Origin: Octopus vulgaris
Taxonomy: Eukaryota
Assembly: GCA_951406725.2 (NCBI GenBank)
Contig: OX597816.1
Location: 47,616,001 to 47,680,000 of the forward strand
Reading direction: 5' to 3'
Length of the DNA stretch: 64,000 nucleotides
Below are positions 28,240 to 62,676 of the stretch, one piece after another (positions within the stretch are counted from its first letter, which is position 1; every line of letters starts with the position of its first letter). Below the pieces are notes generated by a model, which had not been told where the DNA came from, did no database searches, and worked only from the letters and a program-made list of their open reading frames with translations. A program made the position numbers and the translations under genes.

Positions 28240-28400
28240 TTGAGAAAAAGAGGCAGTCAGAATGTTGGATAATCCTTTATTAGAGCTTTCATTCATTTCC
28301 GAACTCGTCAAGACAAAATCATTCTCTTGACGAGTTTATAAATGAAATGAAAGTGAAAATATAGGATTATCCAACATTCTCACTGCCTCCTTTTTTCTCA

Positions 28401-28401
<1 letters not shown>
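28240..28401. mobile_element. Palindromic mini-element with hammerhead-like motif
   Basis: Arms 28240-28313 and 28325-28401 are imperfect reverse complements; minus-strand TTGACGA-GTTC-ggaaat-GAAT-GAAA-GC-TC. Confidence 0.65.
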
Positions 28402-28451
<50 letters not shown>

Positions 28452-29249
28452 GGTGTGCAGGTGTGTGTTTGTGTGTATCCTTGTTTTGATATCATTTGGT
28501 AGTTACCAACAAGTTTTGTTTGTTTCTAGTCTCCTGTGAAGAACATGGGAAATATTATTACCTTGCATGGAAACAGGTGAGGGTTGGTGATAGGAAGGGC
28601 ATCTGGCCATAGACAATACATCTCAACAAATTTCATGTGAATCATGCAAGCATGGAAAAGTTGATGTTAAAATGATGATGTTGCTGATGCTGATGATGAC
28701 GACAATGATGATGATATTTAGAAACAAATTTAAGTCTTCAAATACCACCAGTACCACTAGCACCACCAGCTACCGCCAACACTACCAATACAACCAGATC
28801 CAATGCCATCATTGTCATCATCATCATCATCATCATCATCAACAAATCCAGTTTGTTGTTTTGGTTGTAGAACAAAACTTAAAGTAACTAAGATACTGTT
28901 TCTTTTTTCTTTTTTTTTTGTGTGTGAGTTATAAAATCATAATCTTTGTTTAAGCCATGCTAATCATGACAATCTATAACAAAAGACAAATTCTAACAAA
29001 GTTATTTTAATCAAGCAGTGATTCACTAATTGTTGCGCTGTTGTTTCTCTGGGAAACCACCATCAGCATGATTCAATAACAACAATGATGACGACGACGA
29101 TGACAATGACAATGACAATAGCAACAACAACAATGACGAAATCCCCTCCAAAAACATACATTACACTTGACATTATATTCTCTGTTTGAAAGAACTGACA
29201 GAATAACCAAAATATAAGATGTATCTTTCTTCTGATAAATGATAGCATT

Positions 29250-29650
29250 TATCTTTTTTTATCTTCTACTTCTTTCAATCATTGGACTGCAGCCATGTTG
29301 GAGCACTTCTTTGAAGAGTTTTAGTTGACCAAATTGATGCCAGGACTTATTTTTTGTTTAAGTCTGGTAATTGTTCAATTTTCTCTCTTTTGTAAAACCA
29401 CTAAGATATGGGGATGTAAACTAACCAACGCTGGTTGTCTAGGAGTGGGGAACAAGCACAAAGACACACGCACGCGTGCACATACACACACACACACACA
29501 CATACACAATGGGCTTCCACGTAGTTTCCAACAATCAAATTCACTCACAAAGCATTGGGTCAGCCCAAAGCTATAATAGAAGACAATTGCCTGAGGTACT
29601 GTGCTGTGGGACTGAACCCAAAATCATATGGTTGCAAAGTGAGTACAGTC
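29250..29650 (-). mobile_element. SINE family A, diverged
   Basis: Match to family A. Confidence 0.75.
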
Positions 29651-29754
29651 GTACCCACCTCTTTCTCTCTCTCTCACTCCATCCATCTATCCGTCCGTCT
29701 GTCTGTCTGCCTGCCTGTCTGTCTGTCTGTCTGCCTGCCTGCCTGCCTGCCTGC

Positions 29755-29797
<43 letters not shown>

Positions 29798-30856
29798 TCT
29801 ATCTTCTACCTATACAGAGCCATTTGAAAAATCTACAAACTAACCAGTTGGAGCATAAGCCAGCAAGAATACAGAGGTCAGATTTGGAACCAGAGGTCAT
29901 GAAGACGGTTTGCCAGAAGAGGTAGCAGCATTTTGATTAAATTGAAACGATGCAGGTGCTATCACACAGCTTTTTCATTTATAGCTGACAGCCTTGTAAT
30001 ACTAAAGACAGCCAGACAACAGAATTAATGATACTGAATATAGCAGCTTGTCACACAATGCTTTCACTTCACCAGATCTCGATGTAACAGAAACACCATC
30101 CAACAAATTACCAGCACCAAACAGTCAAAGAATTCTTCTTCAAATTTAGCTAACCTCCATTTGGTGTGTATTTAGCCAAATGCAACAGTTCAATTCTGAC
30201 AGTTATGTGATAAAGTATAATTTGTTTTATACTGTTTCTATGGCTAAATTATCTTTGTGAACAATGTATTCCTTTCTGTGTTAAGACAGTTACTATATTG
30301 TAAGAACTATTAAGTTAATTTCTTGCTTCCAAACTGCATGAAGTGCTGATTCAAGTCTCATTAGACCTTTTGTATATAATATTTTTGACCACGTTCGCTT
30401 GTTTTTGACCTCTCCATTGGTTTTAGCCATACTTTCTTTATGTAGTTTCAGCATAATAAAAATCAGTCATTTTTATTATCTTGGTTTGGACATTTATCTA
30501 TAAAATTACCACAGGTGTATGCATCAAGAAAAAGACAAGACTCAATTCTGTTTAATGCCAGTCACATCACACAAGTTGCTAGACTGAAGTTGAAGACAAT
30601 ATCAAATTGCCTTAAGAAGTCTATCTCCTGATTTTAGGTGGTTAAACAAACTTCAATACTTAGTTGGTACTGGTTCTCTTTTTTAACTCTAGAAAAATGA
30701 AAGACATTATTATTAATGTTATTATTTTTAATGCTGTTGTTTTATGTTGTGAGTTCAAATATTGGCATGGTTGACTTTAGGGTTGATAAAATAAGTACCA
30801 GTCAAGTACTTGGGTTAATGTAGTCAACTCCCCAAAATTACAGGTCCTGTGCCTAT

Positions 30857-31072
30857 AATCCTTTCTACTATAGGCACAAGGCCTGAAACTTTGGGGGAGG
30901 GAGCTAGCTGATTTCATTGACTCTAGTATGTAACTGGTACTTATTTTATTGATCCTGGAAGAATGAAAGGCAAAGTTAACCTCAGTAGAAATTGAACTCA
31001 AAACATAAAGATGGATGAAATACCACTAAGCATTTTGCCTGGCATGCTAACGATTCTGCCAGTTTGCCACCT
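30857..31072 (-). mobile_element. SINE family B variant within a cluster of fragments (30640-31460)
   Basis: Family B head and central domain. Confidence 0.75.
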
Positions 31073-31554
31073 TTTCCTTACAATTGAAAGCATTATTATT
31101 AATGTTGTTTTATGTTCAGAGTTCAAATATTACTGAAGTTAACTTTGCTTTCCATATTTTTGGAGTCAATATAATAAAGTACCATTTGAGTACCAGTGTA
31201 AATTTATTTGGCTTACCTTCTCCCCTAAAATTGCTAGCCTTGTGCCAAAATTGGAAAGAATAATTGATGTTGTTGTTTGCCTGTTTTACTTAATTTATGT
31301 TACTTCCCTTAGTATAATGCAAAAGAAAAGTAGGTAGGAACATACAATTGTATTATATGGGTAAAAGCAAGGCAGTGAGCTGGCAGAGTCATTAGCATGC
31401 AGGGTGAAATGCGTTATGGTATTTCACCCATTTTTACATTCTGAGTTCAAGTACTGGGACTAATTCAATCAGTTTATACCAATCTCTCTGAATTTAAAAT
31501 CTTGTTACTATGTTAGGAACAATGTTAAATGATTAGTCTACACTACTCCATAAA

Positions 31555-31775
31555 GAGCATAGGTCCAGTTTCCTAGTTTCTCTGATGTACACATCCCTCC
31601 CAGGGTGGGAAGCTTGTCTGTCCCAGGATTACTCATTTTTACCAGCTGAGTGGAGTGAAGAAATGTGAAATGAAGTGTTTTGCTCAAGAACACAATGCAC
31701 TGCCCAATCCAGGTATCGAAACCACAATCTTATGATCATGAATGTAACACCCTCACCACTAAGCCATGCACCTCC
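31555..31775 (-). mobile_element. tRNA-derived SINE family C
   Basis: Reverse complement of 47105 copy. Confidence 0.78.
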
Positions 31776-32288
31776 AAAAATCAAAGTCAGGGAGTATAGT
31801 ATACCATACAATAAGCAGTTGAGGGTCAAAATCCTTAGAGTGTCAAACAAAATGCCTTGCATCATTTGTTCCTGTTCTAAGGTAATGGTTAGACAGAATC
31901 TTTAGAGCACCAGAAAATATCTTGTTGTATTTCTTCTAGATCTTTGTGCTCTGAGTACCAATCCCCGAGGTCAAATTTGCCTTTCATCCCTTCAAGGTTG
32001 ATAAAATAAAGTATGAGTCAAGTTTTGGGGTCATTGCTATCAACTAACCCCCAACTCTTAAAATTGTTGGCCTTGTGCCTAAATCAGAAAATATTATTTG
32101 CTCTAGCCCTTTAGATTTCATTCATGATTTACCTATATAATAATGGTTTCAAATTTGGGCACAAGGTCAGCAATTACAGAGGAGGGAGCAAGTCGATTAC
32201 ATCAACCCCAGTGCTCAACTGGTACTAATTTTACATTATTTACATTATTTACATTTGACGGATATTTGTCCTCATCTTGTTAGTTGGT

Positions 32289-32334
32289 AACACAATGTTT
32301 CAGCTGATATACTCTCCAGCCTTCTTCAGGTGTC
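32289..32334 (-). ncRNA. Minimal type I hammerhead ribozyme motif (left arm)
   Basis: gacac CTGAAGA a ggctg gagagtatat cagct GAAA ca TT gtgtt. Confidence 0.65.
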
Positions 32335-32644
32335 TTGGAGAAATTTTGAACTTGGGTTCTCATTCCTAAGGTATTTTTCGATGTTGTTGTTATCATTATT
32401 ATTATTATTATTGTTATTGTTCAGAATCAAACTCAGAATCATTGGGTTAGTAGCCTGCGCTCTTAACCACTACGCCATATGCCCGTGGGCATAGTGGTTA
32501 AGAGCATGGGCTACTAACCCCAAGATTTCGAATTCGATTTCAAGCAGTGACTTAAACAATAACAACAACAACAACAACAACAATAATAATAATAACATCG
32601 AAAAATACCTAAGGAATGAGAACCCAGGTTCAAAATTTCCTCAA

Positions 32645-32690
32645 GACACCTGAAGAAGGCTGGAGGGTATATCAGCTGAAACGTTGTGTT
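32645..32690 (+). ncRNA. Minimal type I hammerhead ribozyme motif (right arm)
   Basis: gacac CTGAAGA a ggctg gagggtatat cagct GAAA cg TT gtgtt; stems I and II pair, palindromic AACGTT stem III. Confidence 0.75.
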
Positions 32691-33177
32691 ACCAACAAAC
32701 GAGATGAGGAAAAATAGCCATCGAATGTAAATAATGTAAATAATGGAAATAATGTACATAATTCCTCATCTCTTAAATATAGACCTGGTACTAATTTTAT
32801 CAACCCTGAAGGGATGAAAGGCAAAAGCATACATGCATACATACATACAGTCATGGGTAACATACTGCCTAAATACCAATCTTCAAAAATTAGGCTTCTC
32901 AACACCAGAAAGGAGAAAGCTGATTCGAAGACTACAAATCCAAGCCATCACTGTGAGCATATCTAGATCTGAAAGTATATGCATGTGTAGATATACATAA
33001 AACAAAACATAAAAATCTGCATGTATACATACATACATACATACATACATACATACATACATACATGCATACGTACATATGTAGATACATGCATACATGC
33101 ATATGTACATATATTCTCACACAAACACATACAACTCTATCTTCATATGTAACAGTTCATATATATATATATATATA

Positions 33178-34241
33178 TCTTTTACTCTTTTACTTGTTTC
33201 AGTCGTTTGACTGCAGCCATGCTGGAGCACCGCCTTTAATCGATAACTCGACCTCGGGACTTATTCTTTTGTAAGCCCAGTACTTATTCTATCGGTCGCT
33301 TTTGCCGAACTGCTAAGTTACGGGGACATAAACACACCAGCATCAGTTGTCAAGCAATGCTAGGGGGACAAACACAGACACACAAACACACACACGTATA
33401 TATATATATATACATTTATTACACACATGTGAGTGAGAACACTTTGAGATATTTTTGGTATCTAACATATGTCAGATACTGTGAGCGCTGCTTCTGATTG
33501 GTCAATCCATGCTGATGACCCGAGGTCACGGTGACGGCACTATTTTTGTCATTCATAAGTTACAACTAAACTTCATTCATTACTTTCACGAGCAGGTAGA
33601 ATGTAGCCATGTAATTAAACAAACATACTATCTTTTTTATACCAGATATCACTTAAAGTCAAAGATTCAATCTGTGTTATGTATTTCTTGAACGTGAACT
33701 TGAATGTTAACAAAATTTTAAACAGTCATCAGTTATCAGTCATTTCACCTGAAAACTTAGCGCTATAAAGTCAGACTATCTTCCTGCGGCATGACATCTT
33801 TTACAGTTACACATTGTGACGTCACTGACGTGAAATCAAGCTGTATTCATGCGCGCTTCAACACGATGTGAAGAATTTACTTATTGGGTTAATAAAATAT
33901 GGTCGTTTATTTGTGTTTAATAAATAAAATACCAAACTCATTCCCTATGGATACCGTATTTATTACAATGAGTGGCTTGTAAACGTATCTAACTCGCTTT
34001 CGCTCATTAGATACGTTTACAAGCCACTCGTTGTAATAAATACGGTATCCATAGGGAACTCGTTTGGTATTCTCTATATATACGATGGGCTTCTTTCAGT
34101 TTCCATCTACCAAATCCACTCACAAGGCTTTGGTCGGCCCGAGGCTATAGTAGAAGACACTTGCCCAAGGTGCCACACAGTGGGACTGAACCCGGAACCA
34201 TGTGGTTGGTAAACAAGCTACTTACCACACAGCCACTCCTG
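33178..34241 (-). mobile_element. SINE family A split by an insertion (halves 33178-33400 and 34080-34241)
   Basis: Both halves colinear with family A. Confidence 0.85.
33415..34075. mobile_element. Non-coding element with terminal 65-bp-arm hairpin
   Basis: Arms 33928-33992 and 34007-34071, loop CTCGCTTTCGCTCA; interrupts a SINE. Confidence 0.7.
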
Positions 34242-34289
34242 TATATATGTATGTATGTATGCATGTATGTATGTATGTATGTATGTATG

Positions 34290-34339
<50 letters not shown>

Positions 34340-34396
34340 ATACGTTTAAATATTTGTTGTGCAAGATTTTTTATGTGAAGTCGTGTGTTGAAACAG

Positions 34397-35775
34397 ATAT
34401 TGTTATATTTCGGAATGGTCATATTGCCAGTTTAGCCAATAAAAACACACGCACTATATATTTGGTGTTATTTTGCTTCAGTGATATTTATTTTTTACAT
34501 TAATCTTAATCTTATTTCGGCCAAAGTTCTTTCGTCACACTCCTGTGACCGCATCAGTGGTCCTTTGTTTTCTTCTCACTTACTTGTGTCTCTCCTTACT
34601 AACCGTCAGCCATTTTGTATTTCTATTGTATGTCTTCATTTGCGCATGCTTATATCTCTATGTGCGTCTATGTTTATTTAGTGTGTGGGGGGGGGATGTC
34701 TGTAATATTTGTATCTTCTGGTTATATACATTCTTGTAATTTGTATTTTGTTTTTGTTGTTGTTGCTTTTGTTCTAATTTTGTTCATGTGTTTACATCCA
34801 CCCATTATTATCATTACATATGCTTGTATGTATGTATAACAACAATATTAGTAATAATAATAATAAATCTAATCGAGAAAAAAAAAAAAAAAGAATATAC
34901 ATATACATATATATATATATATACATACACATACATATACATATATATATATACATATATACACACATATATACACATATACATATACATATATATACAC
35001 ATATACATACACATAGATATTCATTTCTATTTCTTTAATTACCTGTGTATTTATTATGTTTGCAGGATCCACTATTGTCATATGTTGTGGTGTGCGCTAT
35101 TGCTCCATTCTAGTTTTCTATTCAGGCTAGGTTTATTTTCTATTATATGTGTAGCTTCTGTAATTTGTCTAATTGTTGCATCTGTTCTATGTGTGGACAA
35201 TATCTTAATCTCTATGTTATTGATTGATCCCCCGTGTTCTTGTTCGGCGTGTTGGTACAGAATCGATGAGCTTTTACCTTCCTTGAGTTGTCTCCAATGT
35301 TCATTCACCCGCTCACCAATGCTTCTTGCAGTTTCCCCTACGTATGTTACTGTCTTGTTACTGCATCGTCCCTCTATACATCTTATACTATAGACCACAT
35401 TTCTGGCTTTACAGTTCGTTTGTGGGCTAAATCTACATACAGTGCAATAGTTATCCGTACAGAGAGTTCTACTAAAAGGATAGGTTCTACCAATTATAGA
35501 TCTGATAGGGTTGCCTGGCTTTTCAACAACCTTAATTCTTAGTTTAAGTTTATCTAGGGTCCTTCTAAAGCGGTACGCTAGTTCACCTCCAGGGGTGGTG
35601 TCAACGAACATGACACTCTGGTATTTATGGCTATCATACCAAGAGTTGGCCTTCCTTATTTTCTTTTTTGTCCTTTCTATAGTGTTCCATGACTTGTTCC
35701 TATAGAGTGGGCAAATCCCATTCCTATCATTACATAATATATTATCAAATTTCTTCATGGCTCCTTTGTATACTC
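34397..35775 (-). mobile_element. Inverted copy of the PLE 3' end (inverted pLTR-like arm)
   Basis: Near-perfect reverse complement of 37808-39195; minus ORF 35078-35758 identical to the PLE C-terminus. Confidence 0.96.
34519..34563 (-). ncRNA. Hammerhead-like motif in inverted PLE arm
   Basis: Reverse complement of 39029-39073. Confidence 0.6.
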
Positions 35776-38505
35776 AACAAGGGGATTGACAGGGACCAAC
35801 AGACAGACATAAAACCCAACACTAATATAAACAACACATACACCAGAAACAGGAACAATGAATATATCACTAGCGATGATAGTAATAATGGCAATGGTAG
35901 GAATAAAGGTAATAACAATAATAGTGGTAGTAGTAGTGGTGATGGTAACAGTAGAAGTAGTAATGAGGATAGTAGTGATAGTTGTGGTGGTAATAGGAAT
36001 ACTAGTAGTAGTAGTAGTAGTGGTAATGGTGATAATAATAATAGGAAGGCTGATGTTGGAAACAGTAACGATAATGAAGATAACCCTAGAGAGACCATTG
36101 ACATGTATACCCATCCCTTTGACACTCAATTCTTCAACGTATGCGACAAAACTTACTGCATGAACCGAATTTATCCAACAACATTACCCTTCAACAAAAG
36201 GGTATACATCCCAAGACGTACTAATGACCACATGGAAGCACAGTTCACTATAGCTAGGACCAAACTTAGACAGATTTTAGGTTTATACATTAAGAGACAG
36301 AGACAGAATAAGACAGATGCCCAACAACTAGGGATTAAACCTGCATGTGGCCTACAGAAGCTCATTCAGCGCACGAGGAACGGAGAGGTGATATGCCTTC
36401 CCACGGATAAGTCAGGCAGGATGTCAATAGACAGCTTACCGAACTACATCCAGGCAATGCAACCTCATATCGCCAATACAAAAGTAACAACTGTACAGGC
36501 GCATGAGGAGAGAGAAAAGGTCCTCAATGCCCACATGATGATGTGGACAATTGTTCTGGGACCTCAGAAACGTACTGCAAAGAATTTCCAAGCCTGGAAC
36601 AATGATATCCCGGCACTGTATGGACTTCGCAAGGACCATAAAGGTTTTACTGACCCTATAGCAGGACCACCAACAAGACCAGTCTGTGGAGCGAATATCG
36701 CTAGCAATTACAGAATCTCCTACTTCCTCTCAATGATCATACGCCCTATAATCAGGATGTCACCTGATGTATGTGACAGCACAGAAGATCTCCTAAGCAG
36801 GATCAGTGACTGTAACAAAACTTGTGACTTGACAGGATGTATAGTAGGTAGCATGGATGTGGTATCCCTATACCCATCGATTGACGTAGATTTTGCAGTG
36901 GAGAAGTGCGTGGAGATGATCAACGAGAGCCAGGTGGAGTTCTGTAATGTCGACACAGAAGAACTGGGCCTCCTACTTAGACTGACTTATAATAGTGAAT
37001 ACTTAGATAAACATAATCTTAGTAGTTTCTGCCCCAGTAGATGTTTAAGAGGTAGACCGCCTACAATTACTTCTATGGCTAGGAAGACACATATAGAAAG
37101 ATGGCGCGGATGGACCAGAGCCATACGGAGCCCCGCAAATGTCCATCAGGTAAAGAAAATGATCGCACATGCACTAGGAGCTAGTATAAGAGTTACCCTA
37201 AAAGGCCACACATTTAAATTTAATAATAAAATATATGCCCAGGACGAGGGGGCAGCCATCGGTGTTAGTATCGCTGGTGATGTGGCCAACCTCTTCATGG
37301 TATGGTGGGACAGAAGGCTTAAAGAATGCCTACTGCAGAAATCCATACTCGTAAACATGTACTCTCGCTATGTTGATGATATCAATATAGTAGTAAAGGC
37401 ACCCCCACAAGAGAGTACGGTTGATATAGTAATAGAAACTAATACTATGGAGAGCATCCAACAAATAGCTAACTCCATCCACCAGAGTATTAAGGTCACA
37501 ATAGACTACCCCACTAAACACCCCAACCATAGACTACCAGTACTAGACACTGAACTCTGGCTAGAAATTGTGAAAAATAAAACCCAAATCCTTCATTCAT
37601 ACTATGCAAAACCTATGGCCTCAAAATACCTGATCCACCGGAACTCAGCCATTGCGGGCAATGCCAAATTCAATATTTTGATGGCAGACCTCGTCAGAAT
37701 AATGAGAAATGTGTCACGCATGTGCGAGCCTACAGAATTAAAGAGACACATACAGTATTTCATTCACCGCATGCAGTTCTCAGGTTACAGCCATAAAGAA
37801 AGGATCAGAGTATACAAAGGAGCCATGAAGAAATTTGATAATATATTATGTAATGATAGGAATGGGATTTGCCCACTCTATAGGAACAAGTCATGGAACA
37901 CTATAGAAAGGACAAAAAAGAAAATAAGGAAGGCCAACTCTTGGTATGATAGCCATAAATACCAGAGTGTCATGTTCGTTGACACCACCCCTGGAGGTGA
38001 ACTAGCGTACCGCTTTAGAAGGACCCTAGATAAACTTAAACTAAGAATTAAGGTTGTTGAAAAGCCAGGCAACCCTATCAGATCTATAATTGGTAGAACC
38101 TATCCTTTTAGTAGAACTCTCTGTACGGATAACTATTGCACTGTATGTAGATTTAGCCCACAAACGAACTGTAAAGCCAGAAATGTGGTCTATAGTATAA
38201 GATGTATAGAGGGACGATGCAGTAACAAGACAGTAACATACGTAGGGGAAACTGCAAGAAGCATTGGTGAGCGGGTGAATGAACATTGGAGACAACTCAA
38301 GGAAGGTAAAAGCTCATCGATTCTGTACCAACACGCCGAACAAGAACACGGGGGATCAATCAATAACATAGAGATTAAGATATTGTCCACACATAGAACA
38401 GATGCAACAATTAGACAAATTACAGAAGCTACACATATAATAGAAAATAAACCTAGCCTGAATAGAAAACTAGAATGGAGCAATAGCGCACACCACAACA
38501 TATGA
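35776..38505 (+). CDS. PLE polyprotein: reverse transcriptase and C-terminal GIY-YIG endonuclease (uninterrupted frame, true start lost; first ATG 36103)
   Basis: [41 protein letters not shown]; CxxxxCxxC linker; NVVYSIRC...[16 protein letters not shown]...H...E...N. Confidence 0.93.
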
Positions 38506-39028
38506 CAATAGTGGATCCTGCAAACATAATAAATACACAGGTAATTAAAGAAATAGAAATGAATATCTATGTGTATGTATATGTGTATATATATGTATAT
38601 GTATATGTGTATATATGTGTGTATATATGTATATATATATATGTATATGTATGTGTATGTATATATATATATATATGTATATGTATATTCTTTTTTTTCT
38701 TTTTTTTTTTCTCGATTAGATTTATTATTATTATTATTACTAATATTGTTGTTATACATACATACAAGCATATGTAATGATAATAATGGGTGGATGTAAA
38801 CACATGAACAAAATTAGAACAAAAGCAACAACAACAAAAACAAAATACAAATTACAAGAATGTATATAACCAGAAGATACAAATATTACAGACATCCCCC
38901 CACCCACACACTAAATAAACATAGACGCACATAGAGATATAAGCATACGCAAATGAAGACATACAATAGAAATACAAAATGGCTGACGGTTAGTAAGGAG
39001 AGACACAAGTAAGTGAGAAGAAAACAAA

Positions 39029-39073
39029 GGACCACTGATGCGGTCACAGGAGTGTGACGAAAGAACTTTGGCC
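39029..39073 (+). ncRNA. Variant minimal hammerhead motif in PLE 3' UTR
   Basis: ggacca CTGATGCG gtcaca ggag tgtgac GAAA gaac TT tggcc; perfect 6-bp stem II, stem I cca/tgg. Confidence 0.62.
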
Positions 39074-39236
39074 GAAATAAGATTAAGATTAATGTAAAAA
39101 ATAAATATCACTGAAGCAAAATAACACCAAATATATAGTGCGTGTGTTTTTATTGGCTAAACTGGCAATATGACCATTCCGAAATATAACAATATATATA
39201 TAATGTTTATAAGTATGTATGTATTTATATACATAT

Positions 39237-40826: not shown

Positions 40827-41045
40827 TTCAGATGAATATGGTACTTATGTTGAGGTACCAGAATTTAGTACGGTTTTATCCATACAATTTCAAAATAAGG
40901 TGATTAAAATGAAAATAAGCAACAAGGATATCCAGAGGTAATGCAGTATGATCGTTTCAAGCAACTCCATTTAATTGAACAAGGCAATCATTACATCAGT
41001 TTAAATGCAGAGCAATCCTCAGTTGCATAAAGACAGAATTTCATT
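40827..41045 (-). mobile_element. Short element with hammerhead-like motif; same family as 62042-62212
   Basis: Colinear similarity to 62042-62160; minus-strand tgcaa CTGAGGA...GAAA cgatca TA ctgca. Confidence 0.6.
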
Positions 41046-41084
41046 AAGTATATATGTATATAATATGTATAAATATTAATTGAT

Positions 41085-42027: not shown

Positions 42028-42063
42028 CAGTACCGGTTTCAGTCATTGAGACTTTTTCAACTG
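42028..42063 (-). ncRNA. Minimal hammerhead motif, U3-A8 variant
   Basis: cag TTGAAAA agtc tcaat gact GAAA ccgg TA ctg; all three stems pair. Confidence 0.7.
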
Positions 42064-43767: not shown

Positions 43768-44194
43768 GAGATACTATTGACAATCCAATAATTCATTTAT
43801 ATTATAATATTACATGATATGCTATGAATATAATATAACATAACTATAAAAAACCCATAAAAAGCCAACAAATTGTTTCGACTTATATACATTTTCTGAT
43901 ATACATACACAATAACAGTTCCCTTATATATAAGTCACTTCAGGGTCATGGTATAAAGTTAGACGAAATTCCATCTATCTTTAAACCATGACCCTGAAGT
44001 GACTTATATATATAAGGGAACTGTTATTGTGTATGTATATCAGAAAATGTATATAAGTTGAAACAATTTGTTGGCCTTTTTATGTTTTTTTTTCATAAAT
44101 TTTTCATGTTATATAATATTATGTTATATTATATTCATAGTATATCATGTAATATTATACTATAAATAAATTATTGGATTGTCAATAGTATCTC
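43768..44194. mobile_element. Palindromic mini-element with hammerhead-like motif in each arm
   Basis: Arms about 43768-43958 and 43979-44194; CTGAAGT-gacttatata...tatataagt(c/t)-GAAA-caatttg-TT. Confidence 0.75.
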
Positions 44195-49849: not shown

Positions 49850-50290
49850 TGCTAGAGTCACATAATTGTAACCTTTCGAGTGTTGGACCTCACGAAAGCA
49901 ATGTGATTAAAGCTGATGCTGCTTGTTGTTGTTGTTGTTGGTCACCTCAAGCACCTGAGGATAACTCTCAGAAGTGCTAGAGCTGCGGAAGGGAGACGAA
50001 TCATCTCATCCATTGTAGCCTTTAGTTTGCAGATATATCTTTCCACCATCAAGGCCGGACATCTCAGCCAGAGATGTTCTGAAGATTCTACCTCCTCATT
50101 ACAGAGTCTGCATTGATCTGTGATACTGCGTTCTGCCATCTTTTGCCACTGCCCGAGTGCTGGATGATAACCACTATGGAAGCGTATCATGTCTGTGAAG
50201 TCCACCTTTGAGAGGGCTACTTTGGTTCTTTCATCCAGCTTCTTTGTGAAGACTTCCTTCAGACGGGGGTGTTGAATTGGTGTTGGCTGG
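49850..50290 (-). mobile_element. LINE 3' fragment with CCHC zinc knuckle
   Basis: RFHSGYH...CRLCNEEVESSEHLWLRC then stop and (CAA)n. Confidence 0.75.
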
Positions 50291-50630
50291 AATGTTTGAC
50301 ATGCTGCATAACTAGCACCTGTGCTGGTGGTACCTTTTGTGTGTTGGGCCTCATGGAGGCAATGACAAGTGACCAAGACCCATGGCAATATGCCATGTTT
50401 GTGTAAAAGACCCAACAAACTAAGCGAAATCATAGTCCTGGAAGATACTGGTGTCACACAAATGACACCTGTGCTGATGGCATGTTTGGCATTAGGAAGG
50501 GTATCCAGCTGCAGAAACCATGCCAAATCAGACTAGAGTCTGGTGCAGCCCTCTCAGCTAACTAGCTCTGGTCAAACTGTCCAACCCATGCCAACATGGA
50601 CAACAGATGTTAAATGATGATGATAATGAC
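50290..50630 (+). mobile_element. RTE-type 3' UTR fragment
   Basis: Shared tail and (GAT)n. Confidence 0.78.
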
Positions 50631-51985: not shown

Positions 51986-51989
51986 TATG

Positions 51990-52909: not shown

Positions 52910-52910
<1 letters not shown>
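52872..52910 (-). mobile_element. Tiny fragment of the PLE 3' terminus
   Basis: ATATTGTTATATTTCGGAATGGTCAT.TTGCCAGTTTA matches 34397-34434. Confidence 0.85.
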
Positions 52911-52993
<83 letters not shown>

Positions 52994-53085
52994 GGTTGTG
53001 TCTGGGGAGAGTCATTTTCTTTTTGTACCTTATAATTTAACACACTCACCAACAAAATTTCCACTTATTTCTTATTTTTATTTTC

Positions 53086-53122
53086 CTAAAATTTTCGTTA
53101 TTTCTTGCAACATTTTCAATAG
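53086..53122 (-). ncRNA. Minimal hammerhead motif, U3-A8 variant, in a 150-bp island within (TA)n
   Basis: cta TTGAAAA t gttg caagaaa taac GAAA at TT tag. Confidence 0.55.
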
Positions 53123-53163
53123 TCTTGAAAATCCAAAAACGAAGTATATATATATATATATAA

Positions 53164-53218
<55 letters not shown>

Positions 53219-53949: not shown

Positions 53950-54860
53950 CGATCCTCTGCAAGGCAGTTAATTGGCTGAGTTCTTAGAGCATTGGATTGA
54001 TTGCTTCATGGCTTTTTGTTCTAGGCCTCTGTATTCTGAGTTCAAATTTCACCTTGGTCAACTTTGCCTTTTATCTTTACTGGGTAGATAAAAAATGAGT
54101 AAAAATCTTGGGCAGTAGATTGCTGAAACTGTAAAGATACACTGTAATGTTTGCCATGACCCATCTGTCTTTACATTCTGAGTTCAAACTCTGCTGAGGT
54201 CGACTTTACCTTTTATCCTTTCAGGGTTGATAAATTAAGTACCTGTTGTGTACTGGGTCGATTTAATCAGCTGGCTCCCTCCCGCAAAATTTTGAGCCTT
54301 GTGTCTTGAGTAGAAAAGAATATTTGCCATGACTTAGGTGGCAAGTTACCAGAATTGTTAGCAATCTGGGCAAAATGCTTAGTGACATTTTGTCCACCTT
54401 TGCGTTCTGAGCTCAAGTTCTGCTGAGGTTAACTTTGCCTTTCATCCTTTTGGGGCCAATAAAATAAGTCATTATTTAATGTCTGTTTTCCATGCTGGCA
54501 TGGGTTGGACGGTTTGTTTAGAACTGGTAAACAGGAGAGCTGCACCAGGCTCCAATCTGATTTGGCAAGATTTCTATGGCTGGATGCCCTTCCTAACATC
54601 AACCATTCCGTGAGTGTAATGGGTACATACCACCAGCATGGGTCCCACTAACACAACGCCAGTAATGGCCACAACTATGATTTCACTTGGCATGAAAATG
54701 TCTTCTCAAGCACAGCATATCGTCAAGGGTCTTGGTCACTTGTCATCACTTCCATGAGACCCGACATTCATAAGTACCTGTTGAAAATTGGGGTTGATGT
54801 AATCGGCTTATCCTCTACCTACTGCTGGCCTTGTGCCAAAATTTGAAATCAGTATTTGTT
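53950..54860 (+). mobile_element. Cluster of SINE family B fragments with a minus-strand RTE tail (54470-54770)
   Basis: Repeated GAGTTCAAA...GCCTTT.ATCCTTT motifs. Confidence 0.72.
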
Positions 54861-55498
54861 CTGACTCTTTGTACCCCAAGTTCAAATCACACCATAGCCT
54901 AGTTGGGGTTGGGGTGGGTGGGGTAGACTTAATATGTTTCCTGGTTTAACATCCCCACCTTCTGTCACTTTGGGTACCTTTAGTGTGAATTCCACTTTGT
55001 TTTAAGCATTTTGGCCAGGTGATCAGTCAGGGGATAGCTTCCACTCTCCTTGCCACCATTCTTAGATTCTATGACGAAATTTGGGTACTGCCTTCCCTTA
55101 TGACATATCATCATCCTCATCATCATTATCATCGTCATCATCATTTAATGCCTGAGCAATTCCATGGATCAGACAGAGTTCATTCTTTAAAACAGATTTT
55201 ACACCGGCTGGATGCCCTTCCTGTTAACAATCCTCACCTGCTTCCAAGAAAGGTAATATTTCCCCATGGCCAGATGTGTTTTTCCTGTGGAAGACTGGAA
55301 ATTAATGGTGTTGCTTGTATGACAATGAATCTTGTTTACAACCATCACATGATGTCAGGCCAGGGGTACATATATGCAAACATAGGCACAAACATACACA
55401 CACACATGCATATATATAGAACAACAAATACGGACAAAGAAAATTATATCTTGATTTTAGATCTCACCTTATAAATCTGACAATTGTTTCAATAGCAT

Positions 55499-55614
55499 TT
55501 ACCAACCACATGGTTCCGGGTTCAGTCCTTGGGCAAGCGTCTTCTACTATAGCCTCGGGACAACCAAAGCCTTGTGAGTGGATTTAGTAGATGGAAACTG
55601 AAAGAAGCCTGTTG

Positions 55615-55649
<35 letters not shown>

Positions 55650-55862
55650 GTGTGTATATGTTTGTGTGTGTGTGTCCCAACATTGCTTGACAACCAATGC
55701 TGGTGTGTTTATGTCCCTGTAACTTAGCGGTTTGGCAAAAGAAACCGATAGAATAAGTACTAGGCTTACAAAGAATAAGTCCTGGGGTGGATTTGCTCGA
55801 CTAAAGGCGGTGCTCCAGCATGGCTGCAGTCAAAATGACTAAAACAAGTAAAAGAGTAAAGG
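55499..55862 (+). mobile_element. SINE family A
   Basis: Match to family A with AAAAGAGTAAA tail. Confidence 0.87.
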
Positions 55863-55914
55863 AGATATATATATTTGTATATTAAATATATATACACAAA
55901 TACATGTACATATG

Positions 55915-55965
<51 letters not shown>

Positions 55966-56930
55966 ATATATATGTGTGTGTGTGTGTATATATTTATATA
56001 TATATATATACATGTGTGTGTCTATGTCTGTACATGTATTTGTGTATGTATATATATAGATACATATATATGTATGTATGTACATATATATGCATAAATA
56101 CATGTACACACACAGACACACATGTATATACATATATATATATATATGTATAAGATATAATTAAAATTAATATTAATATTCTTGAAAATTCATGTTTGCC
56201 CAACATTATCAAGGCTATCCAAAATTAATGAAATTTCAACTGAACATCTGAAAAATTACCAGTTTATAAACGCTAATAAAAAGAACACCTAAATTGAATT
56301 CAACCTAAAGCATTCCTTCATCTAACTAATGGCAACGTCACTGGATAGCAAAAATGTTACACACACACACACACACACACACATGTACACACACACACAT
56401 GCACGCACACATATGTACCCATATGCACACATAACAGGCTTCTCTTAGTTTCAATCAACTAAAATCCGCTCGAAAGGGTTTGCCTGGCTCGGAGTTATAG
56501 TAGTAGATGCTTGCCCAAGGTGCTGTGCAGCAGGACTGAACCTAAGACCATTTGGTTGGGAACTAAGCCTCTTACCTATGCAACTATGCCTGCACCCGAC
56601 TATAAGATACAAAAAAAAAACAAATATTATTTCTACACCACACTGGTTGTTTTATAAATGCCATCATCATTGTCGTCATCGTCGTCGTCGTATTCATCAT
56701 CATCATCATCATCATCATCATCGTCATCATGATGGTCATCGTCGTTGTCCTCATCATTTTATGTTTTAATGCTGGGCTCTCAAACTCTACTCTACCCTTT
56801 CAGGTTGTCCATCATAATAGATCTATTGTTTCCCTTAGGTCACTCTTTTATTGTCATTCATCACTTCCTTATCACTATTTCAACTATTCCTCAATAGTAC
56901 TCTCTCACTCTCTTTCTTTCTCTCATTCTA

Positions 56931-56961
<31 letters not shown>

Positions 56962-57867
56962 TACCAACTACCATTTTAGCCGCCACTCTCTTTTCCTTAG
57001 GTCATTCATTATTAACATCCATCATATTCCCCTATCACTGACCATTTCTACAACTATCCATCATTTGTTCTATCTTTTACAAGTAAATATGTACCTACCA
57101 TTAGTGTCTCTCCTATATTACTCTCTGCCATTACTCACTCTCTTTCTCTCTCATTATATCCTACCCTCACTACCTCCCTTTCATTACACTTTTCAATATT
57201 ATCTCTCCCATTTCTTCCTCTGCTTTCATATTGTCAACCCAATCTCCGTTTCCTCCTCCTTTTTTTCATTTCTTTTTCCTTTTCATCTTAGTTTTATCTT
57301 AGCTTTATCTTCTGCAATCACTTTTCCTTTTGTTGGTTTCATTGCCCTCAATGAGTGGAAATGATATAGAATAGTAAGGTCTCTTTTATTTCGTAGGATA
57401 TAAATCAATTCCATTAGAAGTGGACCTACAACAAAATAATGCACCCTCTGTCTTCTGTGAAGCTACTGGGAGGTTAAGGAGGGCAGGCTGTCCATAGAAG
57501 CCATACTAAAACAGAACATATAAGTGAGACCTGATTCCCTCAACTGCTCATCGATAAGGGCTTGGGCTGTGATGACGCGGCCGATTCATGCCAGCATGGA
57601 AAGCAGATGTAAAAATGATGATGACGGTGAGATGATGATGACGATGACGACGACGATGATGATGGTGATGATGATGATGATCATCATCATCATCATCAAT
57701 ATCCTCCTCCTCATCATCATCATCATCAATATCCTCCTCATCATCATCATCACATTTGTTGTCACTGTTTTCATTGCATCACCATTACTATGACCAAACA
57801 ACATTCCTTCCAAATACCAACACCACCAAATACCACTGCTACTGTCACCACCACCACTACCACCACC

Positions 57868-57899
<32 letters not shown>

Positions 57900-58504
57900 C
57901 AACAATATAAAAATATATTTCTTTTGATGGCTAGATGACGTTGGTGCATTAGCTACCTTCATCTTCTTCTCCTTTTCTCTCTCTCTCTCTCTCTTTCTGT
58001 CCATTTACCATCCATTCCACTTATTTACCATTTGGCCCACGAAAAGTCAAAAAGCAGATAGACACACAGACAAACACACACACACACAACAAATTCACAG
58101 ACTCAGACAGACAGACACACACACACACACACACAGCAAGACTGACTGTACATTGTAAGCTGTGCTTTTGACATTTGATGTGATAATCAAAACTTATGTA
58201 TTATTAATTATATGTATTATATTTAATTTAGTCTTCAGTTAACACTTAGTTCCATGTAATTCATTTTAAGTAGATTTCCATGTCAGAAGTTTTTCTTATG
58301 TTTCTGGATATTCCCAGCCAACATTGCTGTAGAAATGTTTCGTTGGTGTCTTTTCTTCGTAAAAGATTGATTGATTCGTTGATGTGATCTACTTTTTATT
58401 GTATGGTTTCTGTATCACAATGTCTTGGTAGGACAAATAATCTGATAGAGAGAGAGAATCAAAGAGACTGAGGCAGACATCGATAAAAATGAGACGTGGG
58501 TGAA

Positions 58505-58537
58505 AGAATTGGGTGGATGCGTGGTATGCGTGTGTGT

Positions 58538-58583
<46 letters not shown>

Positions 58584-59970
58584 TTAAGTGTTTGTGTTTG
58601 AGTGTCTGTGTGTTTGTGCATGTGTATGTGTGTTTGCGTGTGTGAGCATGTATGTATGACTGTGTGTTTGTAAGTATATGTGTGTATGTATTTGTGTGTG
58701 TGTTTGTGTGTATGTATCTATGTATGTATGAGTGCTTCTGTGTGTATATGTGTATGTGTGTTTATGTGTTTCTGTGTGTATGCGCATGTGTGACAGTGTG
58801 TTTGTAAGTGTATATGTGTGTATGTGTATGTGTGTGTGTTGTGTGTGTTTAAGAAATAACGATAAAGTATTGAAATATTGAGGCAAAGTGTGTGTGTGTG
58901 AGAGAGAGAGATAGAGAGAGAGAGAGAGTGTGTCTGTGCATTTGTGTGCCTGAGTGTGGGTGTATGTGTGTGTGTGTTTGAGTATTCGTGTGTGTGTGTG
59001 TGTGTATATACATAGGTATGTATGCATGTATGAGTGTATGAGTGTTTGTGTGTTTAAGTGTGGGTGTTTAAGTGAGTGTATGTGTGTATGTGTGTGTGTT
59101 TGAGTGTATTTGTGTGTGTGTGTTTGTGCGTGTGTGCCTGTGTTTGTGTTTCTGTATGTGTGTGCTTGAGTGTGGATGTTTTAGTATGTGTGTATGCATG
59201 TGTTTGAGTGTGTGTGTATGAGTGTGTTTGAATGTATGTGTGTGTGTATGTTTGAATGTTTGAGTATGTATTTATGTATGTATGTATGTATGATTGTTAG
59301 TGTGTTTGTATGTGTATGTATGTGTTTGTGTGTCAGTTTATGTATGTGTTTATGTGTGCTTAAGAAAAGATGATAAAGATGTATCGAAATATTGAGGCAA
59401 AGTGTGGGTGAGAGAGAGAGAGAGTGTGTGTTTGTGCATGTGTGTGCTTGAGTGTGGGTGTTTAAGTGTGTGTATGTGTTTGTTTGAGTGTATGTGCATT
59501 TGAGCGTATATGTGTGTGAGTGTATTTGTGTGTGTGTGTGTGTGTCCCTGTTACAGAAATAATGATAAAAACAAAGAAATTTTGAGGGAGATAGAGAGAG
59601 AGAGAGATAGACAGACAGAAAAGAAGTGAAGAGAAATAATGTGAGTGTATGTGTGTGTGTGTTTATATAGGTGTGTGTGTATGTGTGCATGTATGTATGT
59701 GTATATGTGTGTGGGTGGTTTTGTTTGTGTGTATTTGTTTTGGAGAGAGGGGGAGGGAAAATAGAGTGGAAGTGACATGGAAAGAGAAAGTAAGGAGAAA
59801 GTCAGAAATATTGATGGATATGGACTGAAAAGAATCTCTGTGTGTGTGTGTGTATGTGTGTGTGTGTGCGTGTGTGTGTGCGTATGTTCGTATGTGTGTG
59901 TGTGTGCTCATCTGTTCCTCTGTGTGTGTTTGTGTGTGTCTGTGCGTATGTTTCTCTGTGTGTGTGTGTG

Positions 59971-60012
<42 letters not shown>

Positions 60013-60441
60013 TATGTGTGCGTGTGTGTGTGCTCATATGTTCCTGTGTGTGTGTGTTTGTGTGTGTCTGTGCATATGTTTCTCTCTGTGTGTGTGTGTC
60101 TGCATGTGTTTCTGTGTGTGTGTGTGTGTGTGAGTGTGTGTGTGTAAAAGAGATGAAACTGGAATGTCAGAGAAATGTGTCTTAGAAAGAAAGATAAAAA
60201 AACCAGAAAGATGGCTGGTAGAAGAAGACTGTAAGTATTAGAGAAAGCAATAACGAGAAATTCATTTACACACACACACATACACACGCACTCATGTGTG
60301 TGTCTACATGTACATGCAGATGAGAGAGAGTGTGTGCGATAGAAAAATAAAGATTAAGGTTGACATGTATGCATATATACATACTTATACACGCACACGC
60401 ACACACATATCTACTATAGCTTCTATATATGAATATATGTA

Positions 60442-60502
<61 letters not shown>

Positions 60503-60602
60503 ATATATATATATAAAATATATTTATATATATACATTCATATACATACATATATATGCATATATATATATATATGTATATGTATATGTATATGTATGTA
60601 TG

Positions 60603-60644
<42 letters not shown>

Positions 60645-60645
60645 C

Positions 60646-60689
<44 letters not shown>

Positions 60690-60998
60690 CTATCTATATC
60701 TATATATATATATGCATCTATCTATAAATATATATATATATATTTACATATATATAGATATGCATCTATATATATATATACATATACATGTATATGTATG
60801 TATATATATATATATATTTATATGCATACATATATCTATCCATCTATCTATCTATCTATCTATATATATATTTATATATATATATATGTATATAGATATA
60901 TATATATGTATATAAATATATAGATATACATATATATATATATATACATATACAAACACATGCACACACACACACACACACATACATGAGATGAGTAT

Positions 60999-61060
<62 letters not shown>
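58505..61060. repeat. Long degenerate (GT)n/(TA)n/(GA)n microsatellite field with an internal duplicated block (58850 and 59360)
   Basis: Seen directly. Confidence 0.93.
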
Positions 61061-61065
<5 letters not shown>

Positions 61066-62041
61066 TGTCTTTTTCATGTAAATGAAGTAATTTCTCTTAA
61101 TTTTTCCTTCTTCATCAGAATGAAAATATATTTAATAACTGAGAGAGACTGGTATGTTGAGTTGTGGATTTTGATTACAAAATCAGAAATAATTCTTTGA
61201 TATTATTCTTACATTTCTTTGATATTTCCAGAACACCTTTACGCAATGATTGCTTATGATTTTTAATAAATTTTAATCAATCACTATAATATATCTTTGA
61301 TCTTTAAGTGTTCTTCTCACGGCTTTTGTAAATTTCGAGAGATTATGAACCTGAGAATGTAGGACTATTAACAGCTAAGCACATTAACCTAGACAGATTT
61401 TCTTAAGATGAAGAATATGATAGAATTTCTCTTCAGCTTCTGTCTTTGACTGAACAAAAATGGGATGTTGATATGTAGATCTAATGTTAGAAATAATTGT
61501 AACAGTAAGCTTCAAATTCCAATTGAAAATTCTTCACAGCTTTATGAATTATAAATATGGGTGCTACCAAAGTTGTGTAGTGAAGAAGTTAACTTTGTAA
61601 CAACTTGGTTTTCAAGTTCTACCACACTTGTATCTTGAGCAATTGTCTTTGGATAACCAATGCTTTACATGTGGAATTGGTAAATGGAAACAGTATGAAA
61701 GGCCATTCATCATCGTCATCATCATTCTAACATCCACCTTTTCATGCTTATAAGGGTCAGATGGAGTTTATTGAGGCAGAGGTTTTATAAGTTGATGCCC
61801 TTCCTGTCACTGACCCTCACCTGTTTATTTCCCCATAGCTTGCCATGTTCTTGAGGATAGTGGAAATGAATGTCAAGGCTTGTATGACAGCAACAAACAT
61901 TTTATAAATATCAGGCAATGCCGAGACAAAGAGACACAAGCCTATACACACCCATACTCAGATTTAATTACACATTTTTCAATGCTTCATCATTTGCATT
62001 CTAATTTTATATATATATATATGTTTAAGTAAAAATTTAGA

Positions 62042-62212
62042 TTCAGTTGAATTTGGTACTTAAGTTAAAGGCACCAGAATTTGGTATGGTATTATCCATA
62101 TAATTCAAAATGGGGTGATTACAATCAAAATAAGCAGCAAGGATATCCAGAGGTAATGCATGAAACAATCGTACTGCATTATCTCTGGATATCTTTGTTG
62201 CTTATTTTGATT
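62042..62212. mobile_element. Fold-back mini-element, family of 40827
   Basis: Arms 62123-62160 and 62175-62212; spacer TGAAACAATCGTAC holds the 3' half of a hammerhead core. Confidence 0.7.
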
Positions 62213-62222
62213 ATATATTTAA

Positions 62223-62282
<60 letters not shown>

Positions 62283-62289
<7 letters not shown>

Positions 62290-62671
62290 TTAGAGACAAA
62301 ACCACTATTATGCAAATCAAACAAAGAAAGACTTAATCCAATACATAAAAAATTTTATATAAATTAAATATAATTAAGATTAATTAAGATATCCACTACG
62401 ATCGTTTCTTGTCACTTCAATGGACATTCATACCTGATGAATGTCTATTGAAGTGACAAGAAACGATTGTAGTGGATATCTTAATTAATCTTAATTATAT
62501 TTAATTTATATAAAATTTTCTATGTATTGGATTAAGTCTTTCTTTGTTTGATTTGCATAATAGTGGTTTTGTCTCTAATTAATATTATATTATATTTTAC
62601 TATAAAATTGGATTCAATCCTAAATCTGATTTTTCCCTGTAAATTTGGATTTATTCCCTAATATTTATTAT

Positions 62672-62676
<5 letters not shown>
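62283..62676. mobile_element. Palindromic mini-element with hammerhead at the pivot
   Basis: Near-perfect ~150-bp arms 62283-62431 and 62437-62585, spacer ACCTG; flanked by (TA)n. Confidence 0.85.
62431..62474 (+). ncRNA. Minimal type I hammerhead motif
   Basis: tac CTGATGA a tgtc tattgaagt gaca a GAAA cgat(t/c)g TA gtg; other arm gives palindromic ACGATCGT. Confidence 0.7.

What the first reader, a model, noticed from the sequence alone, without database searches (positions are those of the whole stretch)
28240..62676. Dispersed system of non-coding fold-back mini-elements carrying minimal hammerhead ribozymes, alongside a PLE with the same architecture
Seen: about eight mutually unrelated sequences (28283, 32645, 39029, 40942, 42028, 43994, 53086, 62434) share the order stem I, (C/T)TGAnRN, hairpin, GAAA, very short and usually palindromic stem III, TH, stem I'. 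Five small ones are head-to-head palindromes and most sit in or beside (TA)n. The PLE has the same inverted-3'-end layout. Known: PLEs carry minimal type I hammerheads with palindromic stem III, often insert with an inverted pLTR, and are the proposed mobilisers of retrozymes. Inference: these are PLE-mobilised non-autonomous elements or extreme 5' truncations, forming a diverse ribozyme-bearing palindrome class that standard annotation would miss.
Basis: partly seen in the sequence, partly recalled or inferred. Interest (0 to 1): 0.9.

Follow-up and report, generated by a model that had tools for sequence, protein, structure and literature searches.

The report
Octopus Penelope-element stubs with hammerheads
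The small hairpin-shaped, hammerhead-bearing repeats are real, but each is the short 3' stub of a full-size Penelope-like jumping gene of the same genome, a known kind of sequence; what is new is that paired stubs almost always have one long and one short outer end, and that one family carries a tRNA-like segment that may act as a promoter for SINE-like copies.

Summary
The eight hammerhead-like motifs are in the sequence and are unrelated to each other. They are not a new class. Each of the seven small elements belongs to a genome-wide family (643-3,944 first-look candidates) whose longer copies run into a Penelope-like (PLE) reading frame on the same strand: three Hydra-type, three Neptune/Nematis-type, one Poseidon-type. 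The eighth is a young PLE family. The fold-backs are extreme 5'-truncated, inverted PLE insertions; opposite-strand minimal hammerheads, the U3-A8 core and inverted ends with a one-sided tail are already published. The scan found the same thing earlier in other (shark-like) genomes. Two points go beyond the papers I read. (1) 128 of 139 head-to-head pairs have exactly one tailed arm, none has two, and the tailed arm is as often the shorter (31 versus 31); this likely reflects priming from both target ends rather than simple snap-back. (2) The 32.6-kb family has a tRNA-derived segment about 25 nt after the PLE stop codon where 5' ends pile up, possibly a polymerase III-driven SINE-like form. 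Cleavage was not tested; RNA reads show no cut site.

The parts
28206..28410 (.). F28: head-to-head stub of a Neptune-type PLE; left arm carries the tail; hammerhead motif on both arms (cores near 28312 minus, 28326 plus)
   Evidence: same-strand RT upstream in L305, L312, L324
32230..32785 (.). F32: head-to-head stub of a Poseidon-type PLE: tRNA-like head, (AAT/AAC)n, hammerhead (core 32650 plus; mirror near 32329 minus); tail on right arm
   Evidence: RT and EN upstream in L259, EN end in L241, L260
32486..32556 (+). tRNA-derived segment (A box, B box; degenerate in this copy) at the fold-back centre of F32
   Evidence: A box 29 of 30, B box 28 of 30, spacing 34 nt in 26 of 27; aligns to this genome's tRNA genes, best tRNA-Arg(TCT), z 6.6; not called by ARAGORN or Rfam
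34341..35775 (-). Inverted, 5'-truncated arm of the young PLE, with the 56-nt tail and a hammerhead motif (core 34557)
35683..38505 (+). 5'-truncated PLE reading frame: RT, CX4CxxC linker, C-terminal GIY-YIG endonuclease (Neptune/Nematis type by motifs)
   Evidence: weak RVT_1 E 0.002; 388 homologues, best 99% to a protein labelled Octopus vulgaris; 150 of 150 scored genome matches 99-100% identical
38506..39195 (+). PLE 3' UTR and pseudo-LTR with hammerhead motif (39032-39074, C9, U17, non-palindromic stem III); tail-less end in (TA)n
40828..41060 (-). F40: single 3' stub of a Hydra-type PLE; canonical core at 41022 with a long stem II insert and ACGATCGT-type stem III (mutated here)
   Evidence: EN with CxCX5C linker directly upstream of the UTR repeats in L209
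41975..42165 (-). F42: single 3' stub of a Neptune-type PLE; U3-A8 core at 42060, stem III ACCGGT
   Evidence: same-strand RT in 7 of 20 loci, RT plus EN in L331
43668..44208 (.). F43: head-to-head stub of a Hydra-type PLE; core 43994 (U9, U17), long stem II insert; tail on left arm
   Evidence: EN colinear with the UTR in L214, L215, L217
52995..53143 (-). F53: tail-less stub with a 17-nt inverted tail piece at its 5' end; U3-A8 core at 53119, stem III AATT, U17
   Evidence: EN related to the window PLE upstream in L172, UTR shared with L287
62120..62215 (.). Second, smaller fold-back of the F40 family, joined inside the hammerhead
   Evidence: read by eye against the F40 copies
62271..62650 (.). 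F62: head-to-head stub of a Hydra-type PLE; core 62434, stem III ACGATCGT in the family; tail on right arm, left end in (TA)n
   Evidence: RT (DKT), CxCX5C linker, EN and about 3 kb UTR in L186, L182, L188, L199, L201

Best explanation
The seven small elements are 3' end stubs of at least seven protein-coding Penelope-like retrotransposon families, carrying the ordinary pseudo-LTR hammerhead motif, and their fold-back shape likely arises during insertion when both ends of the cut target prime reverse transcription, one from the distal start site (giving the tail) and one from the proximal site, and the two short cDNAs are joined head to head. Shown: family membership, same-strand linkage to PLE reading frames, variable centres, one tail per pair, arm lengths independent of tail side, short microhomology or 1-9 nt inserts at young joins, (TA)n targets in most families. 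Inferred: the twin-priming step, that both cDNAs come from the same source locus, and that the hammerheads work only as dimers in the parent transcript; in the stubs they are likely passengers.
For: Parents: F62, F43 and F40, F32, F53, F42 and F28. Centres differ per copy. 128 of 139 head-to-head pairs in six old families are tail/no-tail, 0 tail/tail, 6 neither, 5 partial; at most half would be mixed if the two ends chose independently (p about 1e-26). Adjacent pairs: tailed arm longer in 31, shorter in 31, unresolved in 25. Young family, 20 head-to-head insertions: 16 clear tail/no-tail, tailed arm longer in 10, shorter in 6, by up to 2 kb (window: 1388 versus 3415 nt); 12 joins with microhomology averaging 2.6 nt against 0.65 expected, 10 of 12 at 2 nt or more (p 3e-7), 8 with 1-9 nt inserts. 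In F32 the tail is on the shorter, partial partner in 13 of 17 informative pairs. Partner arms share minor alleles more than arms of other loci (F62 0.58 versus 0.08; others 0.12-0.27 versus 0.03-0.12). The tail equals ORF codons about 9-27 in the full copy L409, as in Frangieh 2024, who found two RT start sites flanking the tail and extension of both target strands.
Against: Frangieh 2024 saw no difference in start site between top and bottom strand in vitro, which alone would give tail/tail pairs; an asymmetry has to be assumed. Some F32 partners keep a hairpin remnant plus a distal piece (L248, L249, L256, L257), so one-arm deletions do occur and could hide a snap-back origin. Arm lengths in the young family are weakly correlated (rho 0.41, p 0.07). 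F40's link to EN rests on one locus and F53's on one locus plus a shared UTR. Of the 20 young pairs, two run on into tandem copies, one has a partial tail and one end was not found. Samples are the best-scoring 40 copies per search, not random.
Confidence: 0.6

Rival explanations
1. Same PLE stubs, but the inverted arm is made by self-priming (snap-back) of one strand; the endonuclease trims the second strand at an AT-rich site, giving one tail-less end, and later one-sided deletions at the palindrome centre scramble arm lengths.
For: Explains one tail per pair without further assumptions (128 of 139). Self-priming was proposed by Arkhipova 2013 and EN-mediated resolution of the tail by Craig 2021. 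5' ends cluster at natural short hairpins in F32 and F53 (16 of 30 at reference 42-53); hairpin remnants with one-arm deletions exist.
Against: Without deletion the tailed arm must be the longer; it is the shorter in 31 of 62 resolved old pairs, 6 of 16 young pairs at about 99% identity and 13 of 17 F32 pairs; some tailed arms are 15-27 nt and do not overlap the other arm (window F53, L162, L175, L251).
Confidence: 0.3
2. The stubs are self-standing non-autonomous elements (retrozyme- or MITE-like) that are transcribed, self-cleave and are mobilised in trans as fixed palindromic units.
For: High copy numbers of short forms; in F53 all 30 loci found with a 3'-only query begin within about 50 nt of the core; F32 forms tandem arrays of about 190 nt (L242, L243) and has a fixed-looking 5' end at a tRNA-like head.
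Against: No two fold-backs share a centre in the copies printed; every family leads into a PLE frame; RNA reads show no discrete starts or ends and 83-85% run on into unlike flanks (raw reads of a related species label). Only F32 keeps a real chance of this reading.
Confidence: 0.08
3. The motifs are chance matches in AT-rich repeats.
For: The relaxed window count (8) was reached by the best of 200 shuffles; three families have non-canonical N9 or U17.
Against: Palindromic stem III 3 versus 0.155; eight unrelated families place the motif at the same distance class from the PLE 3' end, with different stem III palindromes and C3-G8 or U3-A8 cores.
Confidence: 0.02

Closest known systems
Minimal hammerheads (min-HHR) of metazoan PLE pseudo-LTRs (Cervera and de la Pena 2014, PMC4209133)
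   Same: Short stem I, palindromic stem III, extra base between positions 9 and 10.1, U3-A8 variant, many unrelated families per genome, pairs 100-700 bp apart on opposite strands, mostly from truncated PLEs.
   Different: Here two families have 45-70 nt inserts in stem II, and two have U9 or C9 in place of A9, one of them an apparently active family; activity untested.
EN+ PLE insertion unit with inverted 5'-truncated copy and one-sided tail (Craig 2021, PMC8557442; Arkhipova 2013, PMC3846280)
   Same: Head-to-head inverted copy, tail at one end only, (TA)n targets.
   Different: Those passages call the tail optional or often one-sided; here it is counted (128 of 139 one-sided, 0 two-sided) and is independent of arm length; tails reach 56-85 nt against 30-40.
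Hydra clade PLEs, including Hydra-1_Obim (Craig 2021)
   Same: DKT motif, CxCX5C linker, C-terminal EN, (TA)n insertion, hammerhead; Hydra-1_Obim also has U17 and an odd-length palindromic stem III like F43.
   Different: The F62, F43 and F40 parents have 3' UTRs of about 2.5-3 kb, against elements generally under 3 kb in all; their hammerheads differ from that listed for Hydra-1_Obim.
Schistosome Sm-alpha/Sj-alpha SINE-like hammerhead elements and non-LTR retrozymes
   Same: tRNA-related head plus hammerhead, dispersed and tandem copies; retrozymes proposed to derive from PLE pseudo-LTRs.
   Different: F32 has a minimal, PLE-type hammerhead, its head lies inside the 3' UTR of a PLE reading frame, and most copies are head-to-head rather than tandem; polymerase III transcription is not shown.

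Membership tests
EN+ Penelope-like elements | RT plus GIY-YIG endonuclease on the same strand as the 3' end | tested here: met
   Window ORF; parents of F62, F32, F42 with RT and EN, F40, F43, F53 with EN, F28 with RT
EN+ Penelope-like elements | Pseudo-LTR overlapping the ORF start, with tail from the first codons | tested here: met
   Full copy L409 of the young family; not checked for the seven old families
EN+ Penelope-like elements | Inverted 5'-truncated copy and one-sided tail | tested here: met
EN+ Penelope-like elements | Placement in a named clade by RT phylogeny | not tested
   Clades assigned by diagnostic motifs from Craig 2021 only; no tree built
Hydra clade | DKT motif, CxCX5C linker, (TA)n target | tested here: met
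   F62 parent has all three; F40 has the linker; F43 EN matches the F62 EN at E 8e-17
PLE minimal type I hammerhead | Core, stem I/II, palindromic stem III | tested here: met
   the young PLE's stem III is not palindromic and N9 deviates in two families
PLE minimal type I hammerhead | Self-cleavage (as dimer) | not testable with these tools
   No discrete read ends in three raw RNA runs, which cannot exclude it; cofold gave the stem III dimer as lowest-energy form only for F42 of 8 motifs
Non-LTR retrozyme | Tandem units each with a type I hammerhead and no ORF | tested here: not met
   All families link to ORFs; tandem arrays seen only for F32 (2 loci); window copies are not tandem
Non-LTR retrozyme | Circular RNA intermediate | not tested
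   No suitable data
tRNA-derived SINE (F32 only) | tRNA-derived head with A and B boxes | tested here: met
   ARAGORN at lowered thresholds was not clearly above shuffles (4 of 30 versus 19 of 300)
tRNA-derived SINE (F32 only) | Fixed 5' end at the head, independent of a parent ORF | tested here: inconclusive
   31 of 37 heads match the upstream parent sequence for 9 nt or less (at least one, L259, is mis-scored and does extend); 3 of 26 head-selected arms reach the ORF; a natural hairpin at the same spot could also explain it
tRNA-derived SINE (F32 only) | Polymerase III transcription | not testable with these tools
   No T4 run in the reference copy or in 4 of 4 full copies matched is only consistent
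MITE | Fixed terminal inverted repeats and constant internal sequence | tested here: not met
   Variable centres, unequal ends

The most novel reading that the evidence does not exclude
An autonomous Poseidon-type PLE has captured a tRNA-derived polymerase III promoter in its 3' UTR and spawns thousands of 300-nt hammerhead-bearing SINE-like copies from it, a living link between PLEs and Sm-alpha-type ribozyme SINEs; and all PLE clades here insert by an asymmetric two-ended reaction that uses the distal start site at one target end and the proximal site at the other.
Probability: 0.35. Interest if true: 0.65.

Novelty: new member of a known kind. Interest (0 to 1): 0.33.

Why it matters
The main finding is ordinary: PLE stubs with their known hammerheads, easily mislabelled as MITEs or microRNA hairpins. 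The value lies in two testable leads. How PLEs make their inverted ends and tail is called undefined in Craig 2021; the strict one-tail rule with free arm lengths, in a family with many near-identical full-length frames, narrows the models and names a likely active element for an assay. The tRNA-headed family, if polymerase III-driven, would show how a PLE can give rise to a ribozyme-bearing SINE.

Tried and rejected
Rfam scan of the window: only microRNA-type hairpin noise among the rows shown. Pfam found nothing for the window ORF at E 0.001. A DNA search with the window PLE's 3' end returned nothing, not even itself: uninformative; the protein search replaced it. A tRNA-like pattern search found nothing. 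ARAGORN and Rfam do not call the F32 head a tRNA. Run search: no RNA holder listed on record. RNA lay: abundant F32-family reads in three raw runs of another species label, both directions about equal, no place where many molecules begin or end; depth is about four times higher over head and body than over the ORF end, and the dip just before the head is partly due to a variant of the reference copy; this neither shows nor excludes cleavage or polymerase III transcription. Folding of single motifs and dimers was not decisive. An idea that upstream sequence of F40 and F43 codes on the opposite strand, or that these are Naiad ends, was dropped when C-terminal Hydra-type EN was found on the sense strand. 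F32 as a free-standing SINE was weakened when the head proved to lie inside a PLE UTR. In one search a faulty duplicate filter kept 23 of 30 loci; one search recounted all 30. In one search six pairs scored tail/tail by a loose end threshold; the identity-based one search gave none. F40 gave no adjacent pairs under the rule and was left out. Lunse et al. (PLE hammerhead variants cleaving as dimers) is not held; only its title was seen.
Full report
Setting. The window lies at G000:C3:47616001-47680000 in a 2.8-Gb genome. The best homologue of its large reading frame is 99% identical and labelled Octopus vulgaris. [quoted passage not shown] A search with its endonuclease part gave 10,021 candidates; all 150 scored were 99-100% identical, several with open frames of 1,310-1,312 aa. 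It is a young, likely active PLE family (activity inferred).

Observation. The eight motifs are present. In the window alone the relaxed descriptor is only moderately above chance (8 versus 2.1 +/- 1.5, maximum 8 in 200 shuffles; palindromic stem III 3 versus 0.155) and misses three named sites. Family copies settle it. Commonest stem III and cleavage-site base among copies matched: F62 ACGATCGT/A 34 of 42; F40 ACGATCGT/A 14 of 26; F42 ACCGGT/A 27 of 37; F28 AGCGCT/A 10 of 33 (most others single CpG-type changes); F32 ACGT/U 28 of 44; F53 AATT/U 46 of 46; F43 ACAATTTGT/U 16 of 18. Cores are C3-G8 (F62, F40, F32, F43, young PLE) or U3-A8 (F42, F53); F28 has U3 or an inserted U. Four of the seven small window elements are palindromes, not five.

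What they are. Each small element is a family: first-look candidates 1104 (F62), 643 (F28), 1050 (F43), 1073 (F42), 3944 (F40), 1482 (F53), 2800 (F32); these are not copy numbers. Walking upstream through longer copies reached a PLE frame on the hammerhead strand in all seven. F62: RT with DKT, CxCX5C linker, EN and about 3 kb of UTR in L186 and colinear loci, matching the Hydra diagnosis of Craig 2021 section 11. F43 and F40: Hydra-type EN in 4 of 10 and 1 of 10 extended loci on the element strand. F32: RT thumb and EN end in L259, EN end in L241 and L260 (Poseidon type by recalled resemblance). F53: EN close to the window PLE in L172, UTR shared with L287. F42: RT in 7 of 20 loci, RT plus CX4CxxC and GIY-YIG in L331. 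F28: RT in 3 of 20 loci on the element strand and one on the opposite strand. Centres of the fold-backs differ between copies. The tail-less end abuts (TA)n in 40 of 41 F62 arms, 27 of 34 F42, 16 of 22 F40, 16 of 25 F43, 14 of 34 F28, but 7 of 48 F53 and 0 of 39 F32.

How the fold-backs likely form. In six old families 128 of 139 head-to-head pairs have one tailed and one tail-less arm, none has two full tails, 6 have none and 5 are partial. Independent choice at the two ends would give at most half mixed. The tailed arm reaches further 5' in 31, less far in 31, unresolved in 25 adjacent pairs. In 20 young insertions (19 fetched plus the window) 16 are clearly tail/no-tail, the tailed arm longer in 10 and shorter in 6; 12 joins have 0-5 nt microhomology (mean 2.6 against 0.65) and 8 have 1-9 nt inserts. 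Partner arms share minor alleles more than foreign arms. In the full copy L409 the tail is the start of the ORF behind the 5' pseudo-LTR. Frangieh 2024 (PMC11167929, parts 1-2 of 4 read) found two RT start sites flanking the tail, extension of both target strands, a predicted dimer, and hammerhead catalysis dispensable for insertion. I infer twin priming with one end at each site (about 0.6 including the identity claim, which alone I put near 0.9). The rival, self-priming as proposed by Arkhipova 2013 (PMC3846280, passages) with trimming and later deletion, stays at about 0.3, because 5' ends cluster at natural hairpins and one-arm deletions are visible in four F32 loci, and because the in vitro work saw no strand difference in start site.

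The F32 family. A 70-nt segment about 25 nt after the PLE stop codon has an A box (29 of 30 copies), a B box (28 of 30) at 34-nt spacing and aligns to tRNA genes of this genome (z up to 6.9 over shuffles; best score tRNA-Arg(TCT); 30 tRNA loci, not all isotypes). ARAGORN and Rfam do not call it. It is followed by the hammerhead body in 28 of 30 loci. Of 26 head-selected arms reaching the head's first base, 23 end within 29 nt and 3 run into the ORF; most ends map 4-9 nt before the head. The sense strand has no T4 run. This fits a polymerase III start, but a natural hairpin sits at the same place, so I give the SINE-like reading about 0.4. Searches for tRNA-headed or polymerase III PLE derivatives returned only the schistosome Sm-alpha precedent (PMC2770079 and PMC6765202, passages); one search returned no listed paper holding both 'twin priming' and 'pLTR'. 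Repbase, Dfam and most subscription papers were not searchable.

Expression. Three raw RNA runs of another species label hold many F32-family reads on both strands, 83-85% running into unlike flanks, with no pile-up of starts or ends. This shows co-transcription of embedded copies and says nothing on cleavage.

What is known. Cervera and de la Pena 2014 (PMC4209133, parts 1-2 of 4) describe these motifs, the U3-A8 core, the extra base after position 9, opposite-strand pairs 100-700 bp apart and low dimer activity. Craig 2021 (PMC8557442: passages, sections 6 and 11, supplement hits) describes inverted copies, the one-sided tail and an octopus Hydra family. The 2026 retrozyme preprint (part 1 of 5) derives retrozymes from pseudo-LTRs. 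The O. vulgaris repeat paper (PMC13282606, part 1 of 3 and passages) lists 31 recently active PLE families and does not mention hammerheads in its main text. PMC7229834 and PMC6962438 were seen as passages. Earlier notes of this scan reached the same 'PLE stub' reading in other genomes; they are not independent evidence.

Verdict. Real features, known kind: new octopus members of PLE 3' stubs with minimal hammerheads. Interest 0.33, carried by the tail rule and the tRNA-headed family.

Noticed in passing
window 26475-26629: Fold-back with about 80-nt arms and TA-rich centre and flanks; looks like a small TIR element (MITE-like) rather than a PLE stub.
   Followed up: no
window 33920-34079: 160-nt fold-back (85% self-complementary) of another family; no hammerhead found by the descriptor; could be another PLE end or a MITE.
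   Followed up: no
window 46547 (+) and 54794 (+): Two further relaxed hammerhead-like hits, within the number expected by chance.
   Followed up: no
window 4505-7136, 26587-27546, 49942-50532: Fragments of other non-LTR retrotransposons (RVT_1 and zf-RVT; PHD-like finger before an RT end).
   Followed up: no
G000:C19:14371871-14386224 and other sites: Tandem and inverted arrays of the young PLE with open frames up to 1,312 aa; a candidate active family.
   Followed up: partly
L186:3312-3700, L209, window 35800-36100: Asparagine-rich (AAY)n stretches inside three unrelated PLE frames, recalling the N-rich inserts of rotifer PLEs in Arkhipova 2013.
   Followed up: no
L186, L209, L217: Hydra-type parents have 2.5-3 kb 3' UTRs with microsatellites and internal duplications, longer than described for the clade.
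   Followed up: partly
L242 (C30:17.29 Mb), L243 (C24:27.71 Mb): Tandem arrays of 3-6 F32 hammerhead bodies of about 190-250 nt, retrozyme-like; in L242 only the first unit has the tRNA-like head.
   Followed up: partly
window 39032-39074 and 43990-44076: Hammerhead cores with C9 or U9 and U17 fixed in whole families, one of them young; activity unknown.
   Followed up: no
L021, L024 (F62): A sub-lineage changes stem III from ACGATCGT to ACAATTGT, keeping the palindrome (3 of 42 arms); CpG decay could produce it.
   Followed up: partly
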